Made by a program: the position numbers and the translations under genes. The notes below the pieces were generated by a model that was not told the DNA's origin, ran no database searches, and was given only the letters and a program-made list of their open reading frames with translations. DNA of 32,000 bases, taken from positions 34,428-66,427 of the forward strand of contig JAVKDP010000003.1 in the NCBI GenBank assembly GCA_040222185.1, written 5' to 3'. This document shows positions 1 through 18,774 of the stretch, in pieces. Source of the DNA: Balneolaceae bacterium. Lineage in GTDB: Bacteria; Bacteroidota; Rhodothermia; Balneolales; Balneolaceae. The first letter of the stretch is position 1, and every line of letters begins with the position of its first letter.

Positions 1-233
1 ACATACATTTTGCTGATTCCTTCATCCAGGATGGCTTGTTTTTCTTCAAGATCACTAAGCTGCTCTTTCCAGTTCCCCATCACTTCAATCTGCTCGTTCT
101 GAGTAGTTAGTACCGAATACTTCTCATACACTTCTACAAGATGAGGAAGCAATACAAAAATAGTAATGCCAAGAAATCCGGCAAGAGATATCCCAGCTAC
201 TATTTTCCAGGTATGTAGATTCTTTGATTCCAT
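1..233 (-). CDS. PilO/GspM-like bitopic assembly protein (N-terminal part only; gene runs off the window start)
   Basis: My own minus-strand translation from the ATG at 233..231 gives MESKNLHTWKIVAGISLAGFLGITIFVLLPHLVEVYEKYSVLTTQNEQIEVMGNWKEQLSDLEEKQAILDEG... This is a short cytoplasmic N-terminus, one TM helix and then a coiled-coil-like segment. The start shares an ATGA junction with the stop of the upstream gene (TGA at 235..233). It is absent from the ORF track because it is truncated. Confidence 0.45.
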   Translation of the reverse strand, partial: MESKNLHTWKIVAGISLAGFLGITIFVLLPHLVEVYEKYSVLTTQNEQIEVMGNWKEQLSDLEEKQAILDEGISKMY

Positions 234-1639: not shown

Positions 1640-1643
1640 AGAA

Positions 1644-3686
1644 TTAGTTATCGATGCTTAAATCCAGATCATCTCTAATTTGATTCCACCTGTAGTTGTC
1701 ATTTCCATCTCCATAGAATACATATGGTGTTATAAAAATGACCAACTCAGACTTTATTATGCTCGTGCTTTTGTTTCTGAACAACCTGCCGAGTAACGGG
1801 ATATTTCCAAGTATAGGAACTTTGTTGATGTTCTCGGTTTCACTTTCTTGTATCAGTCCCCCGAGTATAATAGTTTCTCCGTCTTTCAGTCTGACGGTTG
1901 AGTCTAAAACCCGGCTGTTTATAGTAGGAGGAACCTCTGCTGTTAAGGTTCCAACCGGTGTGTTAAACTCCGGATGAACTTCTACTGTTACATCTCCTGA
2001 AGCGCTTACCCATGGAGTAATTTCCAGGAGCACGTTTGCTTCAATGCTTTCGAATCGCTGAGATTCCTGTGTAATCACATTATTTGGAGATTGAAGTGGG
2101 GTGGTAGACGTAAATATATAATACTGGGTCGTTCCGATTTCTATACTTGCAGTATGCCCGTTGAGGGTTGATATCTGCGGGCGCGATTTTACTGTTACCA
2201 ATCCTTCCTGGTCTAATGCCTGGATTCTGAAAATGAAATCACTCGGTAACCGACCCAGGTTTTTAACTCCAAAGAGATTTCCACCTGGCGCAAATGTTGC
2301 ATTAATATCAGCTCCACCTCCTTGCACACTTAATCCACCACTTTGATTCTCTCCCTGTCCAAACAGAACTGTAAACGGATTAAAGAATCCGCTATCGGGT
2401 TTAACTCCTGATGATAAAGACAATCCCAGTTGATACATATCCGAGGTGTTCACATCCACCACAAGAGCTTCTATCATAATCTGGGGTGTTGGGTAATCGA
2501 TCTCAGAAATAAAGTTTTCCAGCTCTACAATTACGTCATTTGTGCCAATAACCATTAATCCGTTTTGCTCTTTAATAACCTGCACTGTGGCATTCTGAAG
2601 TACACTTTCGGGAATTAGATCAATCACTACATCAGATCGGATATGTTTGAGCCGGATGAGTTTATTTGACGCAATTCCACTGGTGCTTTTATCTCCAATG
2701 ATGTACATCTCACCTTCTTTTCGGAAAGTAAATGAAGTCCCTCTGAATACATATGACAGAGCCTGTTCAATAGTAAGCCCTGATGCTTTGGCGGTTATAG
2801 AATTGGTCGGTAACCCATAGGTTATCATATTTATCTCACTTTGGTACCCAATCTCACGGATTACATCAGTAGCATTGGCGTCTACAACATCCATATCCAC
2901 CAGGCCATCGTCATCCACATTGATCCAAAAATTTGTTCCTGTACTTTCACCCTGTTCATTGGTAAAGCCAATCCGGTCAATGATATATACACCGTCTTTT
3001 TCACGTAACGAAAATCCGTTATTGGAAAGAATAATAGATAATGCTGATTCCAGTTCTACATCTTGCAGATACCCTGAAATTGATCCTCGTACTCCGTTTC
3101 GTGGAATCACATTTCTCCCGGTTTTCTGAGAGATCAAGCGAGCGAAATCGGTTACTTCGATTTCCTTTACATCCATTGAGAGCCTATTATCGTCAAAATC
3201 TATGATGGGTTCGATTGTTTCGGGTACTGGTTCCTGCTCCACATATTCCCTGATTCTGAAAATCTGCCCTGTCTGGGTTGTAGAAAGGTTGTACTCCATA
3301 GATATAAATATGAGTACCTCAATTATCGTGATATCTGAAAACCTGAGTGTGAGCTGCCTGTTCAGCCTGTTTTCTACCAAAAGATTTATATCATATTCAC
3401 GGCCTAATGCCCTTAAGAAGTCCCTGGAATCAATATTGCTAACGCTGATATCGGTCTCGATTTTTTTGAACACATTATCGGGAAGGTTATCCAGGTCAAC
3501 CCGCACTTTGTTCGTGTCAATAATAGTGGAGAGGTATTGTATATAATCCAGCCTTTCCTGTATGGTAGTACTATCGGCTTCGTTGGCCGTCTCTTGCGCG
3601 TAAGCATTGGTATAGACCAATGCGAAAATAAAAATCAGGAGTAATTGTAGGGTACGATTCATAAAACAGGATGGATGTAGACTCAA
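1644..3686 (-). CDS. Secretin (GspD/PilQ family outer-membrane channel)
   Basis: 680 aa with a classical secretin C-terminal domain: VKSRPQISTLNGHTASIEIG, LLEITPWVSASGDVTVEVHPEFN, KDGETIILGGLI...VPILGNIPLLGRLFRNKSTSIIKSELVIFITPYV. Three tandem N-terminal modules of about 59 aa are present (residues 87-145, 178-236, 272-330). The likely true start is the ATG at 3662 (MNRTLQLLLIFIFALVYTNAYAQ is a cleaner signal peptide). Confidence 0.9.
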   Translation of the reverse strand: MSLHPSCFMNRTLQLLLIFIFALVYTNAYAQETANEADSTTIQERLDYIQYLSTIIDTNKVRVDLDNLPDNVFKKIETDISVSNIDSRDFLRALGREYDINLLVENRLNRQLTLRFSDITIIEVLIFISMEYNLSTTQTGQIFRIREYVEQEPVPETIEPIIDFDDNRLSMDVKEIEVTDFARLISQKTGRNVIPRNGVRGSISGYLQDVELESALSIILSNNGFSLREKDGVYIIDRIGFTNEQGESTGTNFWINVDDDGLVDMDVVDANATDVIREIGYQSEINMITYGLPTNSITAKASGLTIEQALSYVFRGTSFTFRKEGEMYIIGDKSTSGIASNKLIRLKHIRSDVVIDLIPESVLQNATVQVIKEQNGLMVIGTNDVIVELENFISEIDYPTPQIMIEALVVDVNTSDMYQLGLSLSSGVKPDSGFFNPFTVLFGQGENQSGGLSVQGGGADINATFAPGGNLFGVKNLGRLPSDFIFRIQALDQEGLVTVKSRPQISTLNGHTASIEIGTTQYYIFTSTTPLQSPNNVITQESQRFESIEANVLLEITPWVSASGDVTVEVHPEFNTPVGTLTAEVPPTINSRVLDSTVRLKDGETIILGGLIQESETENINKVPILGNIPLLGRLFRNKSTSIIKSELVIFITPYVFYGDGNDNYRWNQIRDDLDLSIDN

Positions 3687-3809
3687 TTAAACAGAATAGA
3701 AAATTTTTGTTGAACTTACCTATATCTTTTTTGTGAAAGTCTGTTCCCTTAATCGCGCTTTTTCTTTCTCGCTTGTGATAGGTTTGGGGAGTACTTCCTA
3801 AAAGACTTA

Positions 3810-4979
3810 CTAAAGCACCGTCTCTCTGTAAATCTCTTCTACGGTAGTTAATCCGGCTTTGATTTTTTGAATTCCGACTTCTCTTAACGTAATCATTCCG
3901 TTCTTCCTGGCCTGCTCTTTGAGTTCGCCGGAATTTATGTTTTCCATAATTCTGGAAGCCAAGATCTCATCAAATACGAGCAGTTCAATCAATGCCGTTC
4001 TCCCTTTGTACCCGGTTCCATTGCAAGTGCTACAACCTTCTCCTTTTTTGTAAGAAAATTGTTCTCCATTCAGCCCTAAATCTTTAACCATAATCGGGTC
4101 TGGAGTGTATTCTACCTGGCAATCGGGACAGATTTTACGGACCAGGCGCTGAGCCATGATCAACCTAACAGAGGAAGCCACTAAAAATGGTTCCACACCC
4201 ATATCTGTTAATCTTGAGACTGCAGATGCTGCATCATTTGTGTGTAGCGTTGAAAATACCAGGTGACCTGTTAAGGCAGACCGGATTGCAATTTCTGCCG
4301 TTTCTTTATCCCTGATCTCACCAACCATAATGATATTCGGATCCTGCCGTAAAATGGATCGAAGTACATTGGCAAAGGTCAGGTCAATTTCTTCATGAAC
4401 CTGGGTTTGGTTTATCCCTTCCAGGTTATATTCTATCGGATCCTCAATAGTAGTTATGTTTACTTCTTCGGAATTCAGTTCATTTAATGCCGCGTAAAGC
4501 GAAGTAGTTTTACCACTCCCGGTTGGGCCAGTTACCAGGATCATCCCATAAGGATTGCTGATCCCTTTTCGAAAGTTGTTAAGTATTTTTCCATCAAAAC
4601 CCAGGGCTTCCAGGTTCAGGTCTAAATGACTCTTATCCAGGATTCTCATTACTACTTTTTCTCCATAATGAGTGGGAAGAATTGAAACCCTTAAATCAAT
4701 ATCGGAGCCTTTTTTTGAGCGTACTTTAATCCTTCCATCCTGGGGCCTGCGTTTTTCTGCTATATCCAGGTTCGACATAATTTTAACCCTGGAAACCAAC
4801 GCATCTTTCTGGCTTATTGGAAGTTGTGCTACTTCCTGGAGTACTCCGTCAAGCCTGTACCTCAAGCGGTAACTTTTTTCGAAAGGTTCAATGTGTATAT
4901 CACTCACTCCAATCTCAATAGCTTTTTGGATGATACTCTCAACCTGTTTGATGATAGAGCCGGTTAGCTGGATATTCAC
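3810..4979 (-). CDS. GspE/PilB-family type II/IV secretion ATPase, short form lacking an N1 domain
   Basis: 389 aa with a GTG start (cac at 4977..4979). Motifs: Walker A GPTGSGKTT, Asp box TIEDPIEY, Walker B IIMVGEIRD, His box FSTLHTND. The tetracysteine motif CPDC...CSTC is typical of GspE/PilB and not of PilT. The protein starts directly at the VSDIHIEP (N2) region. Confidence 0.9.
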   Translation of the reverse strand: MNIQLTGSIIKQVESIIQKAIEIGVSDIHIEPFEKSYRLRYRLDGVLQEVAQLPISQKDALVSRVKIMSNLDIAEKRRPQDGRIKVRSKKGSDIDLRVSILPTHYGEKVVMRILDKSHLDLNLEALGFDGKILNNFRKGISNPYGMILVTGPTGSGKTTSLYAALNELNSEEVNITTIEDPIEYNLEGINQTQVHEEIDLTFANVLRSILRQDPNIIMVGEIRDKETAEIAIRSALTGHLVFSTLHTNDAASAVSRLTDMGVEPFLVASSVRLIMAQRLVRKICPDCQVEYTPDPIMVKDLGLNGEQFSYKKGEGCSTCNGTGYKGRTALIELLVFDEILASRIMENINSGELKEQARKNGMITLREVGIQKIKAGLTTVEEIYRETVL

Positions 4980-6045: not shown

Positions 6046-6082
6046 CTAAAGACACATCAAATCTAACGTGTCTTTAGTTTTA
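6046..6082. terminator. Bidirectional intrinsic terminator between convergent genes
   Basis: Perfect 10-bp stem: ctaaagacac (6046..6055) pairs with gtgtctttag (6068..6077), with a 12-nt loop, followed by tttta on the plus strand. Confidence 0.5.
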
Positions 6083-7216
6083 CTCATCAGCGCTTCTTCG
6101 AAATAACTGTATTACATCTGAAGAGCTTAAATCTTCTAAGCCTAAACTCTCTAACTGTGCATAAAACTCAAGAGGAACTCCCTCATTGTATAAAGCCCTC
6201 GCTCCATTTGAAGACATCTCATCAAAGATATCAGAATCTCCCATAGCTCTGATGTATTCTATCGGAATACCTTCATTGTACAACGCTACCGCTCCATTGC
6301 CAGACATCTCATCAAAAAGGTCTGCATCTGCCAGATTTTGAATGTACTCAACAGTAACTCCCTGGTTATATATTGCTAACATTCCATTGGAATTCATCTC
6401 GTCAAATAGATCAGTTGCTCCCATTCCTTGAATATAGGATATCGGGACTCCGGCATTTTTAATCGCTATGATTCCGTTGGCCGACATCTCATCAAATAAG
6501 TCTGAATCTCCAATGGTTTGAACATACTCGGATGTAATTCCTTCGTTATATACTGAAAGAAGGCCATTGCCAGACATCTCGTCGAACAAATCCGAATCTC
6601 CCATATTCTGAATATAGGATAACGGTACACCTGAGTTGTACAATCCAATTACGCCAGCGGCTGACATTTCGTCGAAAAGGTCTGATTGCCCTAAAGACGA
6701 AACATACTCAACAGGAACACCTTCTCTAAAAATAGATAGTACTCCAGCTGCAGAAAGATCATCAAACAAATCCGAGTTTTCCAGGTTCGATATATATTCA
6801 ATCGAAACACCTTCATTGTACAAGGCTTCAGCGCCGTTTACTGAAATATCTTCTGTTACATCAAACGATTTAAGAGCTGCTACATAATCGAGAAAAGAAC
6901 TCGTAATTGGCGTTACATTTGTTGCCGCATCACTGGCATTTCCTGAGTTTAACTCAATCGGAGTAGCCTCCTCATCAAAGAAACCTTTTACAAAATCAGT
7001 AGCTGAAGAGATTGGGTTCACAAAGTAAAATACTATTACCAGTACCAGAGTCGACCAGGCTATGATATTAGCTTTCGAAGATTTCTTCTCTTTGCCCTCC
7101 AGCGAGTCAATGAAGGATTCATCTTCATTTCCCTTTTCATTTATATACTCATCCAGGTCAAATTCATCACGAGTATTTTGATTTTCCGAATCCCTAAATC
7201 TGTCTTTTCTATTCAT
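6080..7216 (-). CDS. Acidic membrane-anchored tandem-repeat protein (about 7 full plus 2 degenerate 30-aa repeats)
   Basis: 378 aa. It has an acidic cytoplasmic N-terminus of about 50 aa, one TM helix (IIAWSTLVLVIVFYFV), and then repeats of consensus IQxMGDSDLFDEMSxNGxxAxYNEGVPxEY. Confidence 0.75.
   Translation of the reverse strand: MNRKDRFRDSENQNTRDEFDLDEYINEKGNEDESFIDSLEGKEKKSSKANIIAWSTLVLVIVFYFVNPISSATDFVKGFFDEEATPIELNSGNASDAATNVTPITSSFLDYVAALKSFDVTEDISVNGAEALYNEGVSIEYISNLENSDLFDDLSAAGVLSIFREGVPVEYVSSLGQSDLFDEMSAAGVIGLYNSGVPLSYIQNMGDSDLFDEMSGNGLLSVYNEGITSEYVQTIGDSDLFDEMSANGIIAIKNAGVPISYIQGMGATDLFDEMNSNGMLAIYNQGVTVEYIQNLADADLFDEMSGNGAVALYNEGIPIEYIRAMGDSDIFDEMSSNGARALYNEGVPLEFYAQLESLGLEDLSSSDVIQLFRRSADE
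6164..6895. repeat. In-frame 90-bp tandem repeat array inside CDS 6080..7216
   Basis: The motif catctcatcaaa / catctcgtcgaa recurs at about 6213, 6303, 6393, 6483, 6573 and 6663 with a strict 90-bp period. This corresponds to protein residues 108-351. Confidence 0.85.
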
Positions 7217-7380: not shown

Positions 7381-8058
7381 TCAGTAGTAAATGCGAACTA
7401 CTATTCGTCGATTTAACGCGCGGTTTTCGATGATATTCCTACCATTGTCATCAATGTGCGGAACTACAGGTTTCGTATCCGCGTAACCGGAAGCTTTTAG
7501 TCGCTCTCCTTCAATCCCTTCCTGCACAAAGTACTTTACTACCCCGGAAGCCCTGGCTACAGAAAGCTCCCAATTGGAAGGAAAAATAGGCGTACTGATT
7601 GGTACATTATCTGTATGACCTTCTACATCTACATTGAATTTATAGAAATCCAGGGCGTTCATCGCCTGGGTCACTTTATCAATGATTTCTTCACCGGTGG
7701 GTAAAAGATTGGCTTCACCGGAGTTATAAAACGAGCTACTGGTAAAAAAGAGCTTTATCCCTTCTCTATCCAGGGTTATATCTACCAGGCCCTGAGTCTT
7801 TTCTACAGCGAGTAATGAATCCAAATCCTGTTTTACTTCTGCAAGAGGTGTCCTAACGTTTTCCTGCTTACTAATCTCTGAACGAAGTCCCTGCTTCATT
7901 TGCTCCCAAAGGTTCAAATCTACTGTAGAAACAGCGATCAGCATTGCAAAGAAAGCGAGAAGAAGCGTGATCATATCACTATAAGTAAGTAACCATTCCT
8001 GGTCCTCTTCGTGCTCCTGATCATCATGCTGATGCCCTATGTAGTTACGGTTCAGCAA
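7381..8058 (-). CDS. motB: MotB-like stator subunit (OmpA-like peptidoglycan-binding C-terminal domain)
   Basis: 225 aa with an apparent TTG start. The N-terminal motif WLLTYSDMITLLLAFFAML matches the MotB TM/plug region and includes the conserved channel Asp (TYSD). The C-terminal OmpA-like signature is SNWELSVARA...NRALNRRIVVRI. Confidence 0.85.
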   Translation of the reverse strand: MLNRNYIGHQHDDQEHEEDQEWLLTYSDMITLLLAFFAMLIAVSTVDLNLWEQMKQGLRSEISKQENVRTPLAEVKQDLDSLLAVEKTQGLVDITLDREGIKLFFTSSSFYNSGEANLLPTGEEIIDKVTQAMNALDFYKFNVDVEGHTDNVPISTPIFPSNWELSVARASGVVKYFVQEGIEGERLKASGYADTKPVVPHIDDNGRNIIENRALNRRIVVRIYY

Positions 8059-8061
8059 AGG

Positions 8062-8910
8062 TTATTCCGAATCTTTAGGATTATTGTTATTGCGGGTTAA
8101 ATAGGTGTTCAATTTATCTTGTATATAGAAAGACGATCTTTTTTCATTGATCATGATGATTCCTTCCAACACAAAATACTCCCGGAATTTATTCATTTGA
8201 GCAGCATTCTTGATCTTTTCAGCCACCGGGTAAAAGATAAACCGGGCAAGTGAAATCCCATATAATGTTGTAATCAAAGCTGCAGCTAGCCCTGGCCCCA
8301 TCCCTGAAGGGTTTTCAAGCTCTCCAAGCATTACGATTAGCCCAAAGAGTGTACCAAACATCCCGAATGATGGCGCTGCACCACCCATAGCTTTTAACAC
8401 ATCTACAACAACCAATTTTCTGAAGTAGTGCTCTTCTACATGATTGGAGCCAAAAACCTGTATATCCTCGTTTGAGTAGTTAGTACTTAACAGAGAGAAT
8501 AGATACCCTGATACATCATTTGAATGTTCTGTCTCTAATTTTGAAAGTGAATTTACTCGGTCTTTTTTGATCTGATCGTTCCACTCTAAAATGGATTCCA
8601 GGTCTTTTTGTAGAGTACGATGGTTTGTTGTAGCCTGACTAAAGAGTAAAAAGATACTTCCGAAAGCTCTGCCCACATACCTCGGCTGATAAGTGATAAA
8701 AACAGCATTTAAAACACCACCCAATACAATAAATAAACTAGGCAAATTTAAAAATCGGTATTCGGAAAGAAAAGGAATTGAATTCATCACAGAGGTTGCC
8801 CCCGTAATTTCCGTAATCCCAAAAACAAGCATGGTTAAACTGACTATAACCCCAAGTATATTCGTAATTGAAAGTCTCATATTAGTTGTTACCCCCTCTA
8901 ATCTCATCAA
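8062..8910 (-). CDS. motA: MotA-like stator subunit (MotA/TolQ/ExbB proton-channel family, 4-TM MotA topology)
   Basis: 282 aa. Two N-terminal TM helices, a cytoplasmic loop of about 80 aa, then TM3 (APSFGMFGTLFGLIVMLG) and TM4 (AAALITTLYGISLARFIFYPVAEKI), each carrying the conserved Pro, and a cytoplasmic tail of about 50 aa. The start is probably the ATG at 8880 (MRLSITNILG...), one nt after the upstream stop, rather than TTG 8910. Confidence 0.85.
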   Translation of the reverse strand: MMRLEGVTTNMRLSITNILGVIVSLTMLVFGITEITGATSVMNSIPFLSEYRFLNLPSLFIVLGGVLNAVFITYQPRYVGRAFGSIFLLFSQATTNHRTLQKDLESILEWNDQIKKDRVNSLSKLETEHSNDVSGYLFSLLSTNYSNEDIQVFGSNHVEEHYFRKLVVVDVLKAMGGAAPSFGMFGTLFGLIVMLGELENPSGMGPGLAAALITTLYGISLARFIFYPVAEKIKNAAQMNKFREYFVLEGIIMINEKRSSFYIQDKLNTYLTRNNNNPKDSE

Positions 8911-9511
8911 TTAAACTTTCCAGCTCTGGTATGCTTGGAACCGGAATGTTTGGATCCAATTGTACTGCCCTGTTCCAGTTAGCCCTTGCGGCAGTTATAT
9001 TTTCCATCATAAAGAATATGGTTCCTTTCAATGCATAAGCATCAGCTGTTTCCTGGATTTCCAGGGTACTATCTACCTGCTCAAGTGCTTCCCTGTATTC
9101 ACCCAGGTAAAATAAATCCTGAGCCTTTCTATAGTTAGTTAATAAGCTTTGAATATCTTTAGCCCTGTTTTTGATCATTGAAGAATCAGCTACTACAATT
9201 GAATCCTTTTCGCTTGGTGCCATTCCTCTTAAATCCAGGTAGAATTGATCTTTATTAGGATCAAGATTAATCTGGATATTCGAACTTTGATTCTTATAGG
9301 TAACTGTAATTTTTTCGGCTTCACCACTTGTAGTACCTGCTTCCTCGGTAGAACCAGCTTCCGATGCTTGTTCAGATGTATTTTCACCAGTATTTGCTAC
9401 AGTATTCGCCTCCTGTAACCCAGCAGTGGATTTACAGCCAGTGATAAATAAAGCCCCAAATAAAAAAACTATTCCTGCTTTTCTAAAAACGTATAACACC
9501 TTGTACACCAT
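8882..9511 (-). CDS. TPR-containing lipoprotein
   Basis: 209 aa with a lipobox (FGALFITGC-KS). A low-complexity T/E/S-rich linker is followed by a C-terminal TPR-like segment (YREALEQVDSTLEIQETADAYALKGTIFFMMENITAARANWNRAVQLDPN). Confidence 0.65.
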   Translation of the reverse strand: MVYKVLYVFRKAGIVFLFGALFITGCKSTAGLQEANTVANTGENTSEQASEAGSTEEAGTTSGEAEKITVTYKNQSSNIQINLDPNKDQFYLDLRGMAPSEKDSIVVADSSMIKNRAKDIQSLLTNYRKAQDLFYLGEYREALEQVDSTLEIQETADAYALKGTIFFMMENITAARANWNRAVQLDPNIPVPSIPELESLIDEIRGGNN

Positions 9512-10568
9512 AACTTGTCCTATTAAATGTTACTTTGTTATTGTTTTCCAGTGTAATCGTCTCTCCTGATAGTGCTATGCTACCATAGACCGCAAGACCA
9601 ATATTCTCACTAAGGTTAAACATCAGCCCGGGGTTAAAAGTGAATATCTGTCCTTTGGGTTTACCAATAGGAATTTGTGCACTCGCTTTGAGAAGCAGCA
9701 TTACCCTTGCCTCATTCAGGTCTTCATTCATTTGGGTAACAGCCTGGTAATAAGAAACTCCAAACTCGAGAAAGTTAATTTCGAAGTCCTGGGCTTCACT
9801 GCTTTTTAAAATGTGGAAACCACCTGAGAGGCCGACATATGAGCTATTTTCAGCATTCAGAGGTTGTCTAAATGTGTAAGAAACCTGGAAATCGATAATC
9901 GTTTTATCTAGAGTACTATCGGTTTCTGCACCTGTTGTATCAACAAGGGTGATACTTTCAGAAGCCCGGCTTTCGGCTCCAAAATTAATCATATGACTTT
10001 TACTTTGAACTATTTCTTCTACTACTTCAAATGGATTAGATACAAAGCTTCGGGTCCAGATTACTTCACGGGATATTGGATTCATCATTCGAACCGAAAT
10101 CACAAGTCCTTCAGGATATCTTCTTTGAACGGTAAGTTCAATAAGTCCCTGAACTCCGTATTTATCTGTAATCGTTGTCAAAAATTCAGGAGAGACATCT
10201 GCAAGAGACCTACCACGGATGTTCAGAATCTGAAGAGTACTGTCGTTCCCCATAATCTTCATTTTATCATTGGGCTCCAGCTCAGGGGGAGATAGAACCG
10301 TGAGGCCGGCATACAAACGCATAGCCGACTCAACCTCAGCCCTGATAAATTCAACTTGCTGTGGAGTAAATCTTAAAGCACTGTAATTAATTTTATATAC
10401 AGCAACCCGCCTGATATTTACAGGAATATCGCTGAGCTCGTCACTCATTTGATTCGTGATCTGCTCCATTAGGTATGGATCACCAGATTTATGATCCTGG
10501 GCAAAAGAAGAAGACGAAATACTTAAACAAACAATGCCAAGTACTACTGATTGAAATATTCTTTTCAT
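9483..10568 (-). CDS. Putative outer-membrane protein (periplasmic N-terminal domain plus C-terminal beta-barrel)
   Basis: 361 aa with a signal peptide (MKRIFQSVVLGIVCLSISSSSFAQ). The C-terminal half has alternating-residue beta-strand patterning and ends in ...YGVQGVIRF, an aromatic C-terminal residue typical of the OMP beta-signal. No named family recognised. Confidence 0.5.
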   Translation of the reverse strand: MKRIFQSVVLGIVCLSISSSSFAQDHKSGDPYLMEQITNQMSDELSDIPVNIRRVAVYKINYSALRFTPQQVEFIRAEVESAMRLYAGLTVLSPPELEPNDKMKIMGNDSTLQILNIRGRSLADVSPEFLTTITDKYGVQGLIELTVQRRYPEGLVISVRMMNPISREVIWTRSFVSNPFEVVEEIVQSKSHMINFGAESRASESITLVDTTGAETDSTLDKTIIDFQVSYTFRQPLNAENSSYVGLSGGFHILKSSEAQDFEINFLEFGVSYYQAVTQMNEDLNEARVMLLLKASAQIPIGKPKGQIFTFNPGLMFNLSENIGLAVYGSIALSGETITLENNNKVTFNRTSYGVQGVIRF

Positions 10569-10569
10569 C

Positions 10570-12405
10570 TTAACCCTCGGACTTCATTTTTCTTCTTACA
10601 GCATACAGAACTGCCTTTTGAGCATCCTCTATATCTTTCTTTGAAGCCTCGGTTGGGTTATCAAGCTCTGAAAGAATTAACTGCTGTTCACGTTTTGGAC
10701 GTACTTTAAGTATTTTTTCACGCACTGCAGCCGGTGCTGTTCTTAAGGCAAGGATTACTGTTTCAGTGAGAATCTCTTCCGTAGCACTTTGAACAAAATC
10801 ATCTTTAACTTTTGGAAGATCATCAAACCCAATAAAGAACTTGCGGATTTTTTTGGCTAGCTCAAGATCCTGCTCAGCAATAGATCTCACATAGTTATCC
10901 TGGTCAGCGAGTGGCATTGTCTCAATTGTTGACAAGATAGAATCTATACCATCAGCGGCTACATACTTCATATCTGAAACTGATAACGCCTTGTTTGAAA
11001 AGTGAGACGCTACTTTCTTATAAACAGAAATCGGGATGTTATTAATCTTACCCATTTTTAGAAGAATCGATATCCTTCTTTGGTCATCCATTTTTTGAAG
11101 AATAATCCCAGCTCTCTCTCCAGCAATCTGAGCTAAAAGAATAGCTACCATTTCATTGGATTCTTCTTTCATTAAATGAAGTAATTGCTGATCGGTTAGC
11201 TGATATACGAAGTCGAATAGATTAGAACCTGAGTCGGGAGAGTCGGTTGAAGATTTTATCTGCTGTATACTTCTTCTAAATGCCCGCGCTTCCTCAATTT
11301 TTTCATCAAGAGGGATAGGATCTGTATTGGCTAAACCAAATTTCAGATTTTCAAATGTATTAGCTTCTAAATGACCTTCAAGTACAGTTAGTAATTTCTC
11401 GTCTACACTGGCGAATCCTCTCACAGCCCGGATAACACCCTGCTCTTCATCTGATGCAATCCATTGTTTAACCATGTCGGCAACAACTTTAGGTGTACTG
11501 ATACAAGTATTGGTGAGATAAGTCTTGTCTTCGTCATACTGAGCCATTGTTTTTGCATCTGGCCCGGAAGGCTCATTATTGGTTGAAGCTAAAGCTCCCT
11601 GGTTAGCCATTAGTGCTTCCATACCTGGAGTAAACGGAGGAATACTTTCTTCACTTTTTGAAGGCTTCTTAAGTAATGCATAAAGCAGAGCTATTAAGAA
11701 AAGAACTGCTAAACCTACAATTACATACATCAGCTGTTTAGGGTCATTCCAATCAATCCCCAGAAAAGTATTTTTTTCTGCTTCTGCAGGTGTATTAGGT
11801 TGGGTTCCGATCCGCTCAACTGCATCATCATTACCTGATGGATCATTTTTGGCTGCATTTTGATCAATGGCTCTGGCATTTCGGGGGAAAACTTTTTTCT
11901 CAACCGTTACAACATCTCCCCTGAACCTATCAGCATTAGCTATCAGAGTAGCTGCTTCTTCAACAAATTCTAAATCTTCATCACTGTATGAAGTATCTAC
12001 CAGTACTTTGATATTAAGCCTGGTTAATCGGAAACGAGTATCAAAACCAGAAGCTCTTAAGCTGTCTCTTCCTGTTTCTGATGCACCTCTTAAATTTGGT
12101 GGAACAAATGGAAGCCCGGGTAAATTCTCGATTCTAACAGGATCTTCGGCTTCAATTACTTCATAATCTTTAGCAACCAGCACCCTTTCAAGAGTTGCTT
12201 TTACATCAACAATAAAGGTTCCGGCCTTATAATAATCCGATAATGAATTATCTAGCACAACTTCATAGTATTGCTCATACTTAGCAGCTTCTTCCTGGAC
12301 ATCAGCCGAAACAGACTGACCCGGTAGCGTCTGTGCCTGTACAAAGGATACTGCAAAAATCACGATTAGCCATGTTAGTGGCCCCCAATTTTTTTTCCCA
12401 ACCAT
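10570..12405 (-). CDS. Membrane-anchored FliG-like protein with a FliF/YscJ-like periplasmic segment (natural FliF-fragment/FliG-type fusion)
   Basis: 611 aa. N-terminal signal/anchor (LTWLIVIFAVSFVQA), a periplasmic region of about 200 aa ending LTRLNIKVLVDTSYSDEDLEFVEEAATLIANADRFRGDVVTVEKKVF (compare the FliF tail of the form RLSVAVvVd...GfdxxRGDxvxV), and a TM helix at residues 225-245. The cytoplasmic residues from about 397 to 611 align by eye to the FliG middle and C domains: ESNEMVAILLAQIAGERAGIILQKM, DLELAKKIRKFFIGFDDL, ILALRTAPAAVREKILKVRPKREQQLILSELD...DIEDAQKAVLYAVRRK. Confidence 0.7.
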   Translation of the reverse strand: MVGKKNWGPLTWLIVIFAVSFVQAQTLPGQSVSADVQEEAAKYEQYYEVVLDNSLSDYYKAGTFIVDVKATLERVLVAKDYEVIEAEDPVRIENLPGLPFVPPNLRGASETGRDSLRASGFDTRFRLTRLNIKVLVDTSYSDEDLEFVEEAATLIANADRFRGDVVTVEKKVFPRNARAIDQNAAKNDPSGNDDAVERIGTQPNTPAEAEKNTFLGIDWNDPKQLMYVIVGLAVLFLIALLYALLKKPSKSEESIPPFTPGMEALMANQGALASTNNEPSGPDAKTMAQYDEDKTYLTNTCISTPKVVADMVKQWIASDEEQGVIRAVRGFASVDEKLLTVLEGHLEANTFENLKFGLANTDPIPLDEKIEEARAFRRSIQQIKSSTDSPDSGSNLFDFVYQLTDQQLLHLMKEESNEMVAILLAQIAGERAGIILQKMDDQRRISILLKMGKINNIPISVYKKVASHFSNKALSVSDMKYVAADGIDSILSTIETMPLADQDNYVRSIAEQDLELAKKIRKFFIGFDDLPKVKDDFVQSATEEILTETVILALRTAPAAVREKILKVRPKREQQLILSELDNPTEASKKDIEDAQKAVLYAVRRKMKSEG

Positions 12406-12716
12406 TTTAAAACCCCAAGTGAGTTTCTAAGTAATTATAGATGATTTTATTCTGCGAACCCCAAGTATGCTGATTTTTTTTAAGTTTTCCACATTTTAAT
12501 TCAAAAAATGTAAAATTTCAGATGTATGTTTTTTAATGAAAAGCATCGTTTTTGAGTGCTTATTCAACGAAAAAAAGGGTTTTATGTACTTTTGCTAAGA
12601 ATTATCCACATTAGAAATTTTTCGAAAACTGCAGCATAGATTAAACAATATTGCTCAAATCTATTAAATAAGCGTCTGGTTTCGTTTTTTGGAGTAGAAT
12701 AGCGTATTTACACTTT

Positions 12717-12980
12717 ATGATTGAATACCAACAAATACTTACGCTCATTATCATTTCGAGCTTGTATCTCTTTCTTTTATGGCTCTTAAGACATTTTAAG
12801 TTACAAGTGTCTAAGTACTGGATCATTTGTATAACTCTGATTGTATTCGGTGAACTGTTTTCAGTGCTGGAACGCATATCAATCCCTTTGCTCTTTAACA
12901 TACTCGAGCATTTATCATTTACTTTGGCATGCTTGTCTTTTTTTGTAGCTGTAGCAACAATCGAGGAGAGTCATGAATAG
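12717..12980 (+). CDS. Small 3-TM membrane protein, possibly the detached N-terminal part of the downstream sensor kinase
   Basis: 87 aa with three hydrophobic helices. It overlaps the kinase start by 8 nt (ATGAATAG) in a different frame. It shares an xLExxS motif (SVLERIS, NILEHLS) with the kinase membrane region (NFLEHTS). Confidence 0.4.
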   Translation: MIEYQQILTLIIISSLYLFLLWLLRHFKLQVSKYWIICITLIVFGELFSVLERISIPLLFNILEHLSFTLACLSFFVAVATIEESHE

Positions 12981-14295
12981 TGTAATCCCCATTCTAAATA
13001 TAATCTCCGCTCTTTTTGCAATATCCGGGATGGTTTTGGTTTTAGCTAAACGTGTTAACCCCTCAAACCTGGATACCCGTTTTATAATTGCCGGAGGATG
13101 TGTTCTTCTCCTTATCGGAACTTTAAATTTTTTAGAACATACCAGCCTGGCAGTAAGCCCGGATATAGGCGAAAATTTTCTGATACTTCTATTCTTTCCC
13201 ATTGGGATTTTTGCCGTTTACTCCTCAGCTGTAAGGCAAGAGTTTAACCGGCGGCGATTGGAAGAAACGAAGGCTGCAGAAGTATTAAAAGAATCTGAAG
13301 AGAAGTATAAGCTACTATTTACCAAAAGCCCGTTACCAAAATCTATTTTTGACCCAAAGACCTTGAAGTTTATCGAGGCTAATGACGCCGCCCTCGAACT
13401 TTACGGATACACAAGAGACGATATTGATAAAGTAACCCTCCTGGATATACACCCTCCGGAAGAGATTGATCGTTTGGTTGAAAATAATGCCAAATATCTC
13501 GGGAAAGCTGCTCCAACAAGTGAGTGGAGAAATCTCAAGAAAAATGGTGACGTTATTATAGTGGAAGTTTCAACCTCTATCATCCATTACCTGGATGAGG
13601 AGTATCGTTTAGCTGTAATCAAAGATATTACTGCCCAACGCAAAGCAGAAGAGAAAGTATTCTCTGCATTCGTAGAAGGTGAAAATAAGGAAAGAGATCG
13701 GCTAGCAAGGGAATTGCATGACGGCATAGGGCAATACCTGGCAGCTACGAGTATGAATCTTGATGCAATGAAAAAGGAAATTCAAAAACTGGGTAAAAGA
13801 GAGCAGTCACTTTTTGAAAACGGCCTCTCTTATTTGAAACAGGCTATGACCGAAACACGAAACCTGTCTCATAATCTGATGCCAAGTATAATAGAAGACT
13901 ATGGACTTGATGTGGCATTGAAAAACCTGACTGATGATTTTGGTAAAAGCTCAGGCATTGATTGCCAGTTTTATTGTAATCTGAAGCATACCAAGCTTAA
14001 AAAAAAGCAAGAATTTAATATTTATCGCATTGTGCAAGAATGCCTCAATAATATTTCTAAACATTCTAAGGCTACCAAAGTTAATGTGCAGCTTATTAAG
14101 GATGAGTTTGACTTGATACTTACAATTGAGGATAATGGCGTTGGTATTGATACTTCGCATCCATCTTACGTTTCTGGTTTAGGACTTAATACTATCAAGA
14201 CCAGAACTTTTATCATGGGTGGAGTGTTTGATATTGAAACCAGTAAGAACAAAGGAACCCTGATTTCAATAAGCGTTCCAATTACTACTAGCTGA
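12973..14295 (+). CDS. Sensor histidine kinase, NarX/DegS type (HisKA_3) with membrane region and PAS domain
   Basis: 440 aa. Three N-terminal TM helices, a PAS segment (FTKSPLPKSIFD...AVIKDITAQRKAEE), an H-box (RLARELHDGIGQYL, HisKA_3 style), and an ATPase N-box and G-box (QECLNNISKHSKA...DNGVGI...GLGLNTI). Confidence 0.9.
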   Translation: MNSVIPILNIISALFAISGMVLVLAKRVNPSNLDTRFIIAGGCVLLLIGTLNFLEHTSLAVSPDIGENFLILLFFPIGIFAVYSSAVRQEFNRRRLEETKAAEVLKESEEKYKLLFTKSPLPKSIFDPKTLKFIEANDAALELYGYTRDDIDKVTLLDIHPPEEIDRLVENNAKYLGKAAPTSEWRNLKKNGDVIIVEVSTSIIHYLDEEYRLAVIKDITAQRKAEEKVFSAFVEGENKERDRLARELHDGIGQYLAATSMNLDAMKKEIQKLGKREQSLFENGLSYLKQAMTETRNLSHNLMPSIIEDYGLDVALKNLTDDFGKSSGIDCQFYCNLKHTKLKKKQEFNIYRIVQECLNNISKHSKATKVNVQLIKDEFDLILTIEDNGVGIDTSHPSYVSGLGLNTIKTRTFIMGGVFDIETSKNKGTLISISVPITTS

Positions 14296-14304
14296 CGGGG
14301 ATCT

Positions 14305-14958
14305 ATGGATTCTATACACCTATTGATTGTTGACGATCATAAAATTGTGCGGGATGGAATAAAATCCTTACTGGATAGTGATGCAGATATTGTAATAGCA
14401 GGGGAAGCTTCAAATGGAAATGAAGCCATTGAACAAATCCATCGCTCTTCTCACAAGCCTGACCTGGTTATCATGGATATTAACATGCCGGAGCTAGACG
14501 GAATTGAAGCTACCAGGTTGATCAAAAAGAAATACCCTGCGATAAGAATACTGGCTTTAACAATGATTAATGAACAGCATCATATTCGGAAAATGATTGA
14601 AGTTGGTGCTTCCGGATATATTTTGAAAAGTGCCAGCAAAGAGGAACTGGTAAGTGCCATTCAAAAAATACATGCTGGTAGTCATTATTTTAGCCCTGAG
14701 GCTGCCCAATCAATTTTACAAGAATTCGTGAGCCCGGAACTTTCGAAAAAAGCCGGCGATATTAATGTTCAAATCACTGACCGCGAAAAAGATGTTCTTC
14801 GGTTAATCGTTGATGAATACACTAACCAGGAAATTGCAAATGAGCTTTTTATAAGTGTGCGTACGGTTGATGCTCATCGTAGAAACTTGCTACAAAAAAT
14901 CGGAGCTAAAAATACTGCCGGTCTCGTAAAGTTTGCTATCGAAAACGATGTTTTTTAA
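14305..14958 (+). CDS. Response regulator, NarL/FixJ family (REC plus LuxR-type HTH)
   Basis: 217 aa. REC motifs LLIVDDH and DLVIMDINMPELDG. The C-terminal sequence LTDREKDVLRLIVDEYTNQEIANELFISVRTVDAHRRNLLQKIG is a GerE/LuxR HTH. Confidence 0.95.
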   Translation: MDSIHLLIVDDHKIVRDGIKSLLDSDADIVIAGEASNGNEAIEQIHRSSHKPDLVIMDINMPELDGIEATRLIKKKYPAIRILALTMINEQHHIRKMIEVGASGYILKSASKEELVSAIQKIHAGSHYFSPEAAQSILQEFVSPELSKKAGDINVQITDREKDVLRLIVDEYTNQEIANELFISVRTVDAHRRNLLQKIGAKNTAGLVKFAIENDVF

Positions 14959-16593: not shown

Positions 16594-16630
16594 AAAACCC
16601 GCTCTATGATAAGAGTGGGTTTTATTTTTT
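16594..16630. terminator. Intrinsic terminator between convergent genes
   Basis: aaaacccgctct (16594..16605) pairs with agagtgggtttt (16612..16623) with one G-U pair. The loop is atgata and the stem is followed by atttttt. Confidence 0.55.
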
Positions 16631-17146
16631 ACTGGCTCTTCTATTAAAATTGAATTCTATTTCTTCCACTTCCTCACCCGATGATTTCATTACCAGGAAC
16701 ACCTGGTATTCATCAGTGCCCTTTTTAAGAATAGTAAAACCTTCGAACCAAACTCCTTGGTCAGAAATCTCAACTAATCGGAAATCCTGGGTAACATTCT
16801 TCTCTTCCCATCCTGTTAAGTCGGCATTAAAATGTTTGAGCCTCAGAATCAGTGATTCTTCAATTTCTGAAATAGTAAATATCTCATAAAAATTAACCTC
16901 TCCACCTGATACTGATCTGAACAGGCCTACCATTGATCCCCCAGCGGGGTCTGACCAGATGTCTTCTGCCAACCCTCCAAAAGCTTCTGCAACCCAGTTA
17001 CCTGAAAGCCATGCAACGTCATCAATCTTTGCATGTGGCATATTTATTGGATCGTCCAGTTTCAAGGTGTTCTCAGTATATACGCTTTGTGCAAATAATG
17101 AACTGGTACAAAAAATCAGAGCTGCACTTAAGATGCTTCTTAACAT
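16622..17146 (-). CDS. Secreted hypothetical protein, third gene of the ECF sigma operon
   Basis: 174 aa with a signal peptide (MLRSILSAALIFCTSSLFAQ). It begins 11 nt after the sigma-factor stop on the same strand. Confidence 0.6.
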   Translation of the reverse strand: MLRSILSAALIFCTSSLFAQSVYTENTLKLDDPINMPHAKIDDVAWLSGNWVAEAFGGLAEDIWSDPAGGSMVGLFRSVSGGEVNFYEIFTISEIEESLILRLKHFNADLTGWEEKNVTQDFRLVEISDQGVWFEGFTILKKGTDEYQVFLVMKSSGEEVEEIEFNFNRRASKK

Positions 17147-17157
17147 GATATTGGATA

Positions 17158-18438: not shown

Positions 18439-18774
18439 TTAGAACTTCATTACTTCGCGCACTTCAACTTTCCCACCCAACCTGAGTACAGGGCAGCCTT
18501 TAGCCAGTTCAGTTGCTTCATCAAAGCTGGACGCGTTTAAAATATAAAACCCACTAACAAGCTCTTTTGATTCAATAAAAGGCCCGTCGGTGGTTATCTT
18601 ATCTTTTCCAATAATAGTTTTGGCAGGTTGATGTAATGGTTCACCTGAATCATAGTGCTCCCCTAGTTCCTGAATCCACTGTCCGTGAGCGGCAATCTCT
18701 TTTTGCATCTCTTCCGGTGAAAAATCTGCGTAAGCGTTTTCGTGTTCAAAAAGTATTAGCATATATTTATTCAT
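18439..18774 (-). CDS. YCII/DGPF-family protein
   Basis: 111 aa containing TTDGPFIESKELVSGFYIL, which matches the DGPFxExKE signature of YCII-related proteins that pair with ECF42-type sigma factors. Confidence 0.85.
   Translation of the reverse strand: MNKYMLILFEHENAYADFSPEEMQKEIAAHGQWIQELGEHYDSGEPLHQPAKTIIGKDKITTDGPFIESKELVSGFYILNASSFDEATELAKGCPVLRLGGKVEVREVMKF

What the first reader, a model, noticed from the sequence alone, without database searches (positions are those of the whole stretch)
7381..12405. Orphan rotor-plus-stator operon: FliF/FliG-like fusion, OM barrel, TPR lipoprotein, MotA and MotB, with no other flagellar genes
Five minus-strand genes are packed almost without spacers. 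The junctions are a 1-nt gap at 10568/10570, a 29-nt overlap at 9483..9511, a 1-nt gap at 8880/8882 if MotA starts at its third Met, and a 3-nt gap at 8058/8062. The block is bounded by a 311-bp upstream spacer and a 164-bp downstream spacer, so it reads as one operon. It combines a MotA/MotB-type ion-driven stator with a membrane-anchored protein whose cytoplasmic half looks like the FliG torque-generating domains. It also carries a lipoprotein and a putative OM beta-barrel, giving predicted components in the cytoplasm, inner membrane, periplasm and outer membrane. None of fliM/N, fliH/I/J, flhA/B, rod, hook or flagellin genes is in the window. The known 5:2 motor families pair with TonB, TolA, GldM, GltG/J or the ZorA tail. 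To my knowledge a stand-alone stator paired with an anchored FliG outside a flagellar locus is not a described system. Hypothesis: a minimal pmf-driven rotary or trans-envelope energy-transducing machine.
Basis: partly seen in the sequence, partly recalled or inferred. Interest (0 to 1): 0.9.

Follow-up and report, generated by a model that had tools for sequence, protein, structure and literature searches.

The report
Flagellar-type rotor and stator without flagellum
A tightly packed five-gene operon in a marine Balneolaceae bacterium encodes the torque-generating core of the flagellar motor (a natural FliF-FliG fusion plus MotA/MotB) together with two outer-membrane proteins. The lineage appears to have no flagellum, so the operon probably builds an undescribed ion-driven envelope machine.

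Summary
Window 7381-12405 (minus strand) carries five ORFs with the stated junctions.

- **611 aa:** signal peptide, FliF RBM3/collar-like periplasmic domain, one TM helix, the FliF C-terminal FliG-binding motif, then a full FliG (N/M/C).
- **361 aa:** no Pfam family. The model shows a TolB-N/LpoB-like domain plus a small OmpA/Ail-type barrel.
- **209 aa:** TPR lipoprotein.
- **MotA and MotB:** flagellar type, with plug, OmpA-like domain and an invariant channel Asp.

The five genes stay together in 20/20 Balneolaceae loci and in 6 of 7 distant loci (21-36% identity), in two of those with permuted order. All five are under strong purifying selection (dN/dS 0.01-0.16). At least 125 clusters at 50% identity share the 611-aa architecture.

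FliG keeps the basic torque-helix residue but has lost the FliM-binding HPQ. FliF lacks RBM1/2. No other flagellar gene lies in the window or in the annotated loci. Published inventories of two complete Balneolaceae genomes list FliG and MotA but no export, rod, hook, filament or switch genes. Non-motile Gracilimonas tropica carries the operon.

I found no paper describing it. Ring formation, rotation and the machine's output are inferred, not shown.

The parts
10570..12405 (-). 611-aa membrane-anchored FliF(RBM3)-FliG fusion, the putative rotor subunit. Layout: signal peptide (aa 1-24, ...VQA|QT), periplasmic domain, TM helix, FliF C-tail, FliG N/M/C.
11881..12306 (-). Periplasmic FliF RBM3/beta-collar-like domain (aa ~34-175). 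It carries the near-invariant LPGLP motif (aa 95-99) between the two long hairpins and the RGD...FP motif (aa 162-174).
   Evidence: AF2 model, mean pLDDT 67.5. Top 18 Foldseek PDB hits are FliF RBM3/collar, followed by SpoIIIAG and PrgK. Motif conservation. Pfam YscJ_FliF_C in 17/24 members.
11671..11727 (-). Single transmembrane helix (aa 227-245), equivalent to FliF TM2.
   Evidence: Hydropathy 2.81, and the helix is conserved at aa ~170-330 in almost all of 125 family clusters. It aligns to FliF TM2.
11446..11496 (-). FliF C-terminal tail motif (aa 304-320, STPKVVADMVKQWIASDE), equivalent to the FliG_N-binding helix of FliF (Salmonella NDPRVVALVIRQWMSND).
   Evidence: alignment. P305 and W315 are each conserved in 38/44 diverse members.
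10582..11247 (-). FliG middle and C-terminal domains (aa 387-608), including the torque helix (aa 569-590). The R281-equivalent, R572, is basic in 44/44 members. The FliM-binding EHPQ motif is degenerate (EESNE).
9483..10568 (-). 361-aa secreted protein of a novel family. Layout: signal peptide, TolB-N/LpoB-like alpha/beta domain (aa ~34-176) with a highly conserved loop that was not confidently modelled (aa 94-122), then a small C-terminal beta-barrel (aa ~192-361) ending in Phe.
   Evidence: No Pfam, NCBIfam or PADLOC hit. AF2 mean pLDDT 74.6. Foldseek hits: TolB 8e-7, LpoB TM 0.6, Ail/NspA/OmpA/OprG barrels. Invariant residues. The N-domain is conserved in L022/L023.
8882..9511 (-). 209-aa lipoprotein (lipobox ITG|C at aa 23-26) with an acidic Ser/Thr/Glu-rich linker and a C-terminal TPR domain.
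   Evidence: TPR_1 2.7e-8 and TPR_2 1.8e-7. Homologues are in every distant operon.
8062..8910 (-). MotA-type stator A subunit with 4 TM helices. The likely true start is the Met at 8880, giving 272 aa.
   Evidence: Pfam MotA_ExbB 1.5e-17. NCBIfam MotP 1.7e-34 and PomA 1.8e-29, against TolQ 0.0027 and ExbB 0.054. The only PDB hits are flagellar MotA/PomA, best 4.9e-23. TM3 and TM4 prolines are conserved.
7381..8058 (-). MotB-type stator B subunit: TM helix with invariant Asp (LTYSDMITLL), plug, and an OmpA-like peptidoglycan-binding domain.
   Evidence: MotB_plug 1.7e-15 and OmpA 1.4e-15. MotD 2.6e-47 and MotS 4.8e-37. The Asp is conserved in all relatives.
12406..12972 (.). Upstream intergenic region shared with the divergent histidine kinase/LuxR-type regulator pair. 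The presumed promoter lies here but was not defined.
   Evidence: Sequence read. The sigma-70-type scan was not enriched over shuffles.

Best explanation

**Proposed mechanism.** MotB anchors MotA/MotB stator units to peptidoglycan. Ion flow through the conserved Asp channel turns the MotA ring. MotA's cytoplasmic face pushes on the torque helix of the FliG_C domain. That FliG is covalently fused to a truncated FliF. The FliF RBM3/collar-like periplasmic domain is of the kind that builds the S-ring of the flagellar MS-ring, so the fusion most likely assembles into a membrane ring that rotates.

**What it lacks.** There is no FliM/FliN switch, because the FliM-docking motif is lost. There is no type III export gate, because RBM1/2 are absent. 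There is no rod, hook or filament.

**Proposed output.** The conserved tip of the collar (LPGLP) is proposed to engage the two co-conserved envelope proteins: an outer-membrane barrel with a TolB-N/LpoB-like periplasmic domain, and a tethered TPR lipoprotein. Mechanical work would thus be delivered to the outer envelope. The actual output (surface movement, outer-membrane or cell-wall remodelling, secretion) is unknown.

**Shown versus inferred.** Shown: gene content, domain identities, conservation of catalytic and interface residues, operon conservation, purifying selection, and absence of other flagellar genes in relatives. Inferred: ring assembly, rotation, contact with the outer-membrane proteins, and the output.
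For: - **Domain identities:**
- **Stator essentials conserved across the family:** MotB Asp, MotA TM3/TM4 prolines, plug and peptidoglycan-binding domain.
- **FliG torque helix:** the R281-equivalent is basic in 44/44 diverse members, and acidic residues are frequent at positions 580/582.
- **Loss of switch docking:** the FliM-binding HPQ and the R160-equivalent are lost. This fits a motor without a switch.
- **Gene linkage:** the five genes are linked in 20/20 Balneolaceae loci with variable flanks. They are also linked in distant relatives, including a permuted order in L025 and L026.
- **Selection:** dN/dS is 0.01-0.16 for all five genes.
- **Family size:** at least 125 clusters at 50% identity share the architecture.
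- **Whole-genome tables:** two complete Balneolaceae genomes show FliG and MotA (MotB in one) without export, rod, hook, filament or switch genes.
- **Cultured carrier:** Gracilimonas tropica carries the operon. It is non-motile and is listed among genomes lacking flagellar-assembly genes.
- **Precedent:** engineered FliF-FliG fusions assemble rings (papers listed; PDB 8z4d).
Against: - No direct evidence of ring formation or rotation. Both AF2 models have only moderate confidence (pLDDT 67.5 and 74.6) and are monomers.
- FliF similarity at the sequence level is weak (E 0.0017-0.07) and rests mainly on fold and motif matches.
- The acidic residues of the FliG torque helix and the MotA loop charges are only partly conserved and may be shifted.
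- The window's own genome could not be inventoried.
- Some Balneolaceae (Fodinibius/Aliifodinibius) do carry many flagellar genes.
- Without a rod it is unclear how a rotating inner-membrane ring would transmit work to the outer membrane.
Confidence: 0.6

Rival explanations
1. A non-rotary force transducer. The stator acts on the anchored FliG as a single or few-copy adaptor, as ExbBD acts on TonB or TolQR on TolA. It would pull on or remodel the outer-membrane barrel/TPR module rather than spin a ring.
For: The operon combines an inner-membrane motor with outer-membrane and lipoprotein partners, like Ton, Tol-Pal and GldLM systems. The X protein's N-domain resembles the TolB N-domain and LpoB. 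No rod or bushing genes are present.
Against: - The stator is of the flagellar type, not the TolQ/ExbB type.
- Its partner keeps the FliG torque helix on the cytoplasmic side, which is a tangential-push interface.
- The periplasmic domain is a ring-building RBM3/collar fold.
- In Ton/Tol the transducer sits inside or beside the A5 ring through its own TM helix, which is not the FliG geometry.
Confidence: 0.2
2. It is simply the fliF/fliG and motAB of an otherwise dispersed but complete flagellar regulon, so the organism makes ordinary flagella.
For: Balneola vulgaris was described as flagellated. Fodinibius/Aliifodinibius genomes hold many flagellar genes. The window's own genome was not inventoried.
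Against: - The FliF part lacks RBM1/RBM2, which house the export gate.
- The FliM-binding motif of FliG is lost.
- Complete Balneolaceae genomes with FliG and MotA lack FlhA/B, FliPQR, FliM/N, rod, hook and flagellin.
- Non-motile G. tropica has the operon.
- No flagellar gene lies in the flanks of any annotated locus.
Confidence: 0.05
3. A decaying remnant of a lost flagellum with no present function.
For: Flagellar loss with leftover genes is common (PMC12199754). PMC9909488 interprets incomplete flagellar pathways in Balneolaceae as loss.
Against: - All five ORFs are intact in the 20 Balneolaceae loci that contain the full operon, and in most distant loci.
- dN/dS is 0.01-0.16.
- Functional residues are invariant.
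- Two non-flagellar genes are co-conserved with the three flagellar-type genes even where gene order is permuted.
Confidence: 0.03
4. An accessory energiser of the neighbouring type IV pilus / type II secretion-like genes (PilN-like, secretin, PilT/GspE-like ATPase at 233-4979).
For: These genes lie 2.4 kb downstream on the same strand in the window.
Against: The adjacency is not conserved in any of the 21 Balneolaceae loci or in the distant loci. A different gene and a 164-bp spacer lie between them.
Confidence: 0.03

Closest known systems
Bacterial flagellar motor core (FliF MS-ring, FliG, MotA5B2 stator)
   Same: - Homologous FliG N/M/C with a torque helix.
- Homologous FliF RBM3/collar, TM2 and FliG-binding tail.
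- Flagellar-type MotA, and MotB with plug, conserved Asp and an OmpA-like domain.
- The likely push-on-FliG_C mechanism.
   Different: - FliF and FliG are one polypeptide.
- FliF RBM1/RBM2 are absent and TM1 is replaced by a probable cleavable signal peptide.
- The FliM-binding EHPQR motif is lost.
- There is no FliM/N, export apparatus, rod, hook, filament or L/P rings.
- Instead it is co-conserved with a novel outer-membrane barrel protein and a TPR lipoprotein.
Chlamydiaceae FliF-FliG fusion (Bergeron 2016, PMC4768692)
   Same: A natural fusion of a shortened FliF to a FliG-like domain in a non-flagellated lineage with only a few flagellar genes.
   Different: - The chlamydial protein is about 330 aa.
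- It keeps RBM2 plus one RBM-like element and lacks the SpoIIIAG-like RBM3 domain.
- It carries only a FliG_M-like region.
- It is thought to work with the injectisome, and no dedicated MotAB is linked to it.
- Here RBM3/collar and a full FliG with its torque helix are kept and are linked to MotAB.
Engineered FliF-FliG full-length fusions of Salmonella and Vibrio (e.g. PDB 8z4d/8z4g)
   Same: End-to-end FliF-FliG polypeptides that assemble MS-ring-like rings. The window protein has the same junction logic: FliF C-tail followed by FliG_N.
   Different: Those fusions are laboratory constructs with full FliF, operating within a complete flagellum.
Other 5:2 ion-driven motors with envelope partners (ExbBD-TonB, TolQR-TolA-Pal, GldLM-T9SS, AglRQS-Glt, ZorAB)
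   Same: An inner-membrane ion-driven A/B motor encoded next to periplasmic or outer-membrane partners, so that work is delivered to the unenergised outer envelope.
   Different: - The A/B pair here is of the flagellar (plug-bearing, torque-interface) type rather than the TolQ/ExbB/GldL/ZorA type.
- The coupled partner is a cytoplasmic FliG torque domain rather than a periplasmic shaft or an intracellular tail.
SpoIIIAG / SctJ-PrgK ring-building-motif proteins
   Same: An RBM fold with a beta insertion that forms large rings. SpoIIIAG and PrgK appear among the fold hits after FliF.
   Different: These have no FliG and no stator, and they belong to sporulation or injectisome channels.

Membership tests
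Bacterial flagellum (canonical motor) | FliG with middle and C-terminal domains and a torque helix | tested here: met
   Pfam FliG_C 7.4e-20 and FliG_M 2.8e-8. Profile vs 1lkv 3.9e-44. R281-equivalent basic in 44/44.
Bacterial flagellum (canonical motor) | FliG EHPQR motif that docks FliM | tested here: not met
   The window has EESNE where T. maritima has EHPQT. Across 44 members only the Glu is kept, and the R160-equivalent is not conserved.
Bacterial flagellum (canonical motor) | FliF with three periplasmic ring-building motifs (RBM1, RBM2, RBM3) and two TM helices | tested here: not met
   Only about 170 structured periplasmic residues, and they match RBM3/collar. The N-terminal hydrophobic segment looks like a cleavable signal peptide. 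TM2 and the C-tail are present.
Bacterial flagellum (canonical motor) | FliM/FliN switch, type III export gate (FlhA/B, FliPQR), rod, hook and filament genes in the genome | tested here: inconclusive
   None in the 32-kb window or in the flanks of the annotated loci. All are absent from two complete Balneolaceae genomes in PMC12199754 Table S2. The window's own genome could not be scanned.
Bacterial flagellum (canonical motor) | MotA/MotB stator with plug, channel Asp and a peptidoglycan-binding domain | tested here: met
   All NCBIfam equivalog scores are below their curated cutoffs, so it is a divergent subfamily.
5:2 ion-driven motor superfamily (MotAB/ExbBD/TolQR/GldLM/ZorAB) | MotA_ExbB channel domain in the A subunit and a single-TM B subunit with a conserved acidic residue | tested here: met
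   PF01618 1.5e-17. The YSD Asp is invariant.
5:2 ion-driven motor superfamily (MotAB/ExbBD/TolQR/GldLM/ZorAB) | A5:B2 stoichiometry with rotation of A around B | not testable with these tools
   Needs multimer modelling or cryo-EM.
Tol-Pal / Ton systems | TolQ/ExbB-type A subunit with a TolA/TonB partner | tested here: not met
   TolQ 0.0027 and ExbB 0.054, against MotP 1.7e-34. No TolA or TonB domain in the operon. The X protein shares only the TolB N-domain fold and lacks the beta-propeller.
Zorya anti-phage defence | ZorA with a long cytoplasmic tail, plus ZorC/D or ZorE | tested here: not met
   In PADLOC only MotB gives generic ZorB hits (1.5e-19, weaker than MotD at 2.6e-47). There are no hits to ZorA or any other Zor protein.
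GldLM / type IX secretion motor | GldL and GldM proteins | tested here: not met
   No GldL/GldM family hit for any of the five proteins in Pfam or NCBIfam.
Chlamydiaceae-type FliF-FliG fusion | Short FliF (RBM2 only, no RBM3) fused to a FliG_M-like region | tested here: not met
   The window protein keeps RBM3/collar and the full FliG N/M/C. The comparison is with the description in PMC4768692. No chlamydial sequence was aligned.

The most novel reading that the evidence does not exclude
This is a previously unrecognised, widespread rotary nanomachine: a switchless, export-less flagellar-type motor. A ring of FliF(RBM3)-FliG fusions would be spun by MotAB, and its output would be delivered to the outer membrane through a novel barrel protein and a TPR lipoprotein. 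It would power a non-flagellar process such as a new form of surface motility or outer-envelope remodelling. A more radical sub-reading, roughly 0.1 on its own, is that the module is not a reduced flagellum but a surviving relative of the pre-flagellar rotor-stator core.
Probability: 0.45. Interest if true: 0.92.

Novelty: new variant of a known kind. Interest (0 to 1): 0.82.

Why it matters
The FliG-MotA interface is known only from flagella, and every other 5:2 motor uses a different partner. A conserved, selected five-gene module would show that the flagellar torque generator has a second life as an independent machine. It keeps only FliF-RBM3, FliG and MotAB and adds outer-membrane partners.

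It would give a far simpler system than a flagellum (five genes, no switch, no export) for studying rotor-stator torque generation and ring assembly. It would explain the published puzzle of rotor proteins in genomes without filaments (PMC12199754). It also bears on how the flagellar motor was assembled, or dismantled, in evolution.

A cultured carrier, Gracilimonas tropica DSM 19535, makes the question experimentally testable.

Tried and rejected
- **Second homologue search:** a search with a diverse profile returned essentially the same Balneolaceae set, because candidates are pre-selected by shared words.
- **Taxonomy of distant loci:** exact look-ups of family members and of housekeeping genes flanking L022, L023, L025 and L026 gave no organism names. 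The phyla of the distant members therefore remain unknown. The only clue is T9SS markers (PorZ, Por_Secre_tail) near L025-L027 and L029, which point to the FCB group.
- **Narrow FliF test:** a Balneolaceae-only N-terminal profile found no FliF in the PDB. Only the diverse profile did.
- **Signals in the DNA:** promoter and terminator consensus scans were not enriched over shuffles. Rfam and tRNA scans were empty. No DNA tandem repeat was found in the downstream repeat-protein gene.
- **Selection statistics:** dN/dS for deep pairs was saturated, and my ORF picker chose a wrong ORF for the 361-aa gene in three deep pairs. Only the four close pairs are used.
- **Ideas rejected:** Zorya, Tol/Ton and GldLM membership, linkage to the type IV pilus-like genes, and the 'OMP-TolB-like' class of PMC12204202, which has a beta-propeller that the 361-aa protein lacks.
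- **Literature:** eight successful full-text searches found no description of this operon. A ninth failed on a syntax error. The library excludes most subscription-journal papers, so absence is not proof.

Full report
**Observation.** The junctions are 1 nt, a 29-nt overlap, 1 nt and 3 nt, and there is a 164-bp spacer downstream. The upstream spacer to the next well-supported gene, a divergent histidine kinase at 12973, is 567 bp. GC content is uniform at about 0.39-0.40 across the block. No tRNA or Rfam element is present.

**Organism.** Homologues of the 611-aa protein at 58-99% identity come from Balneolaceae MAGs. The family belongs to phylum Balneolota in the FCB group.

**The 611-aa protein is a natural FliF-FliG fusion.**
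- *FliG part.* Pfam gives FliG_C 7.4e-20 and FliG_M 2.8e-8, both above their curated cutoffs. TIGR00207 FliG scores 3.4e-24, below the equivalog cutoff. A profile of 44 diverse family members matches T. maritima FliG-MC at 3.9e-44 and FliG_N (5tdy) at 1e-4.
- *Topology.* The layout is a signal peptide, about 200 periplasmic residues, one TM helix, then about 365 cytoplasmic residues. Almost all of the 125 family clusters at 50% identity share it.
- *FliF fold.* The AF2 model of residues 1-251 has a mean pLDDT of 67.5 and the topology alpha, long beta-hairpin, loop, long beta-hairpin, alpha, beta. Its top 18 Foldseek PDB matches are all FliF RBM3/beta-collar structures (E 1.7e-6 to 1.1e-4, probability 1.0). 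SpoIIIAG and PrgK follow. TM-scores are low (0.27-0.48), so this is a fold-class match, not a close superposition.
- *FliF sequence.* A diverse N-terminal profile aligns to Salmonella FliF at E 0.0017. The alignment runs over TM2 and the C-terminal FliG-binding helix: FliF NDPRVVALVIRQWMSND against window STPKVVADMVKQWIASDE. A sub-threshold match also places the RGD...F motif at the end of RBM3. Pfam YscJ_FliF_C is hit by 17 of 24 diverse members, best 2.3e-5.
- *Conclusion.* The polypeptide is FliF lacking RBM1/RBM2, joined end to end to a complete FliG.

**Functional residues in the fusion.** Across 44 diverse members the FliG R281-equivalent (R572) is Arg or Lys in 44/44. Acidic residues are common at positions 580 and 582. 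The RGD Asp is invariant and the LPGLP motif between the two hairpins is nearly invariant. The FliF-tail Pro and Trp are each kept in 38/44. The FliM-docking EHPQ motif, in contrast, keeps only its Glu, and the R160-equivalent is not conserved. This pattern fits a rotor subunit that still meets a stator but no longer meets a switch complex.

**Stator.** MotA hits MotA_ExbB (1.5e-17). It resembles flagellar MotP and PomA (1.7e-34, 1.8e-29) far more than TolQ or ExbB (0.0027, 0.054). Its only PDB relatives are flagellar MotA/PomA. MotB has the plug (1.7e-15) and an OmpA-like domain (1.4e-15). Its channel Asp is invariant even in the most distant relatives, as are the MotA TM3 and TM4 prolines. 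PADLOC gives only generic ZorB-MotB similarity and no ZorA.

**The two other genes.**
- *361-aa protein.* It has no Pfam, NCBIfam or PADLOC family and no informative name in any source. Its AF2 model (mean pLDDT 74.6) has an N-terminal alpha/beta domain and a C-terminal barrel that ends in Phe. Foldseek matches the N-domain to the TolB N-domain and LpoB, and the barrel to Ail, NspA, OmpA-TM and OprG. A loop at residues 94-122 is among the most conserved stretches but is poorly modelled, so it is a candidate interaction segment.
- *209-aa protein.* It has a lipobox (ITGC), an acidic linker and a TPR domain.

**Conservation.** All 20 Balneolaceae loci with enough sequence keep the same five genes in the same order while their flanks differ. 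Seven distant family members (21-36% identity) were examined.
- L022, L023, L027 and L028 keep the order.
- L025 and L026 have a permuted order: X, TPR, MotA, MotB, FliG.
- L029 has the fusion gene followed by a transposase.
- Homology of the TPR, MotA and MotB proteins is detectable in all five distant loci tested. The X N-domain is detectable in L022 and L023.

dN/dS in four unsaturated pairs is 0.01-0.16 for every gene. This is a selected functional unit, not a relic.

**Is there a flagellum elsewhere in the genome?** I could not scan the source genome. Indirect evidence is strong.
- Table S2 of PMC12199754 lists FliG and MotA for two complete Balneolaceae genomes (Balneolaceae bacterium ECT2AJA-110-D and Balneola sp. 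EhC07), and MotB for EhC07.
- Everything else listed for them is the generic background seen in all non-flagellated genomes, plus FlgD and FlgO hits.
- FliF, FlhA/B, FliPQR, FliM/N, rod, hook and flagellin are absent. Non-flagellated Bacteroides, Barnesiella and Belliella lack FliG.
- I did not verify that the FliG listed for those two genomes is this fusion protein.
- Gracilimonas tropica DSM 19535 carries the operon. It is described as non-motile and is listed among genomes lacking flagellar-assembly genes.
- As a caveat, Balneola vulgaris was described as flagellated, and Fodinibius/Aliifodinibius genomes hold many flagellar genes.

**Mechanism (inferred).** Peptidoglycan-anchored MotA/MotB units would convert ion flow into rotation of MotA against the FliG_C torque helix. 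The RBM3/collar domain would oligomerise the fusion into an S-ring-like ring. There is no switch and no export. The conserved collar tip, the X protein and the TPR lipoprotein form a plausible path to the outer membrane. The main rival (confidence 0.2) is a non-rotary, Ton/Tol-like use of the same parts. An ordinary flagellar regulon, a decaying relic and linkage to the nearby type IV pilus-like genes are each disfavoured.

**Comparison with known systems.** The closest system is the flagellar motor core itself, but three defining features were tested and not met: full FliF, the EHPQR motif, and the Tol/Ton, Zorya and GldLM alternatives. The accompanying flagellar genes are absent wherever I could look. 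The Chlamydiaceae FliF-FliG fusion is the nearest natural analogue. It keeps a different part of FliF, has only FliG_M, and has no linked stator. Engineered FliF-FliG fusions show that such polypeptides can form rings.

**Literature.** Recent surveys note rotor proteins in filament-less genomes as an open question and classify flagellar against generic stators. None of the eight successful searches found this operon described (for a 2026 preprint).

**Verdict.** The feature is real and well conserved, and as far as I can tell it is undescribed. It is best filed as a new variant of a known kind: the flagellar rotor-stator principle in a stand-alone, envelope-coupled five-gene machine. Interest is high.

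Noticed in passing
window 233-4979 (minus strand): A type IV pilus / type II secretion-like set lies 2.4 kb downstream of the operon: a 468-aa protein with a C-terminal PilN domain, a 680-aa secretin with an STN domain, and a 389-aa T2SSE (PilT/GspE-like) ATPase. It is not linked to the operon in relatives.
   Followed up: partly
window 6080-7216 (minus strand): A 378-aa protein directly downstream of MotB has an acidic N-terminus, one hydrophobic segment and about nine degenerate ~36-aa repeats (...SDLFDEMSxNGxxxxYNxGVPxEYIQ...). It has no Pfam family. It is present downstream only in the closest relatives (L001, L006, L007, about 40% identity). No DNA-level tandem repeat was found.
   Followed up: partly
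window 12717-12980 (+) and 12973-14958 (+): An 87-aa very hydrophobic ORF overlaps by 8 nt the start of the PAS/HisKA_3 histidine kinase. It could be a separate small membrane protein or the kinase's membrane N-terminus split by a frameshift. The kinase and its LuxR-type response regulator are divergent from the operon and recur upstream of it in L003, L006 and L007.
   Followed up: no
window 16622-18774 (minus strand): A cluster of a sigma-70-family factor with DUF6596, a DUF6265 protein and a YCII-domain protein. The sigma factor's homologue lies immediately upstream of the operon in many relatives (L005, L008-L012, L014, L015, L021). This may be synteny or regulation.
   Followed up: no
window 25459-27846 (+): An alpha-amylase-domain protein with a Por_Secre_tail sorting domain, so the organism has a type IX secretion system.
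   Followed up: no
L025 3-4421: In one distant relative a 1472-aa cell-surface-type protein sits immediately upstream of the permuted operon on the same strand. It has fibronectin-III and Ig-like repeats and a T9SS C-terminal sorting domain. This is a possible hint that the machine acts on a surface adhesin, or it may be coincidence in a T9SS-rich lineage.
   Followed up: no
L029 10001-13587: The fusion gene is followed directly by a DDE transposase instead of the other four genes. The operon is apparently disrupted in this contig.
   Followed up: no
L022 11817-13432: Between the fusion gene and MotA there are three called genes (229, 86 and 175 aa). The 361-aa family HMM hits both the 229-aa and the 86-aa products, so the X gene may be split or frameshifted there. 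The 175-aa product is the TPR homologue.
   Followed up: partly
PMC12199754 Table S2: The gliding, non-flagellated gammaproteobacterium Beggiatoa leptomitiformis D-402 is also listed with FliG, FliN and MotA/MotB but without export, rod, hook or filament genes. A lone FliG with a stator may therefore occur outside the FCB group.
   Followed up: no
window 9483-10568, protein residues 94-122: The most conserved stretch of the 361-aa protein (SPPELEPNDKMKIxGNDSTLQILNxQGRSLADVSPE, many invariant residues) is the least confidently modelled part (pLDDT 32-45). That is typical of a segment that folds only on a partner.
   Followed up: partly
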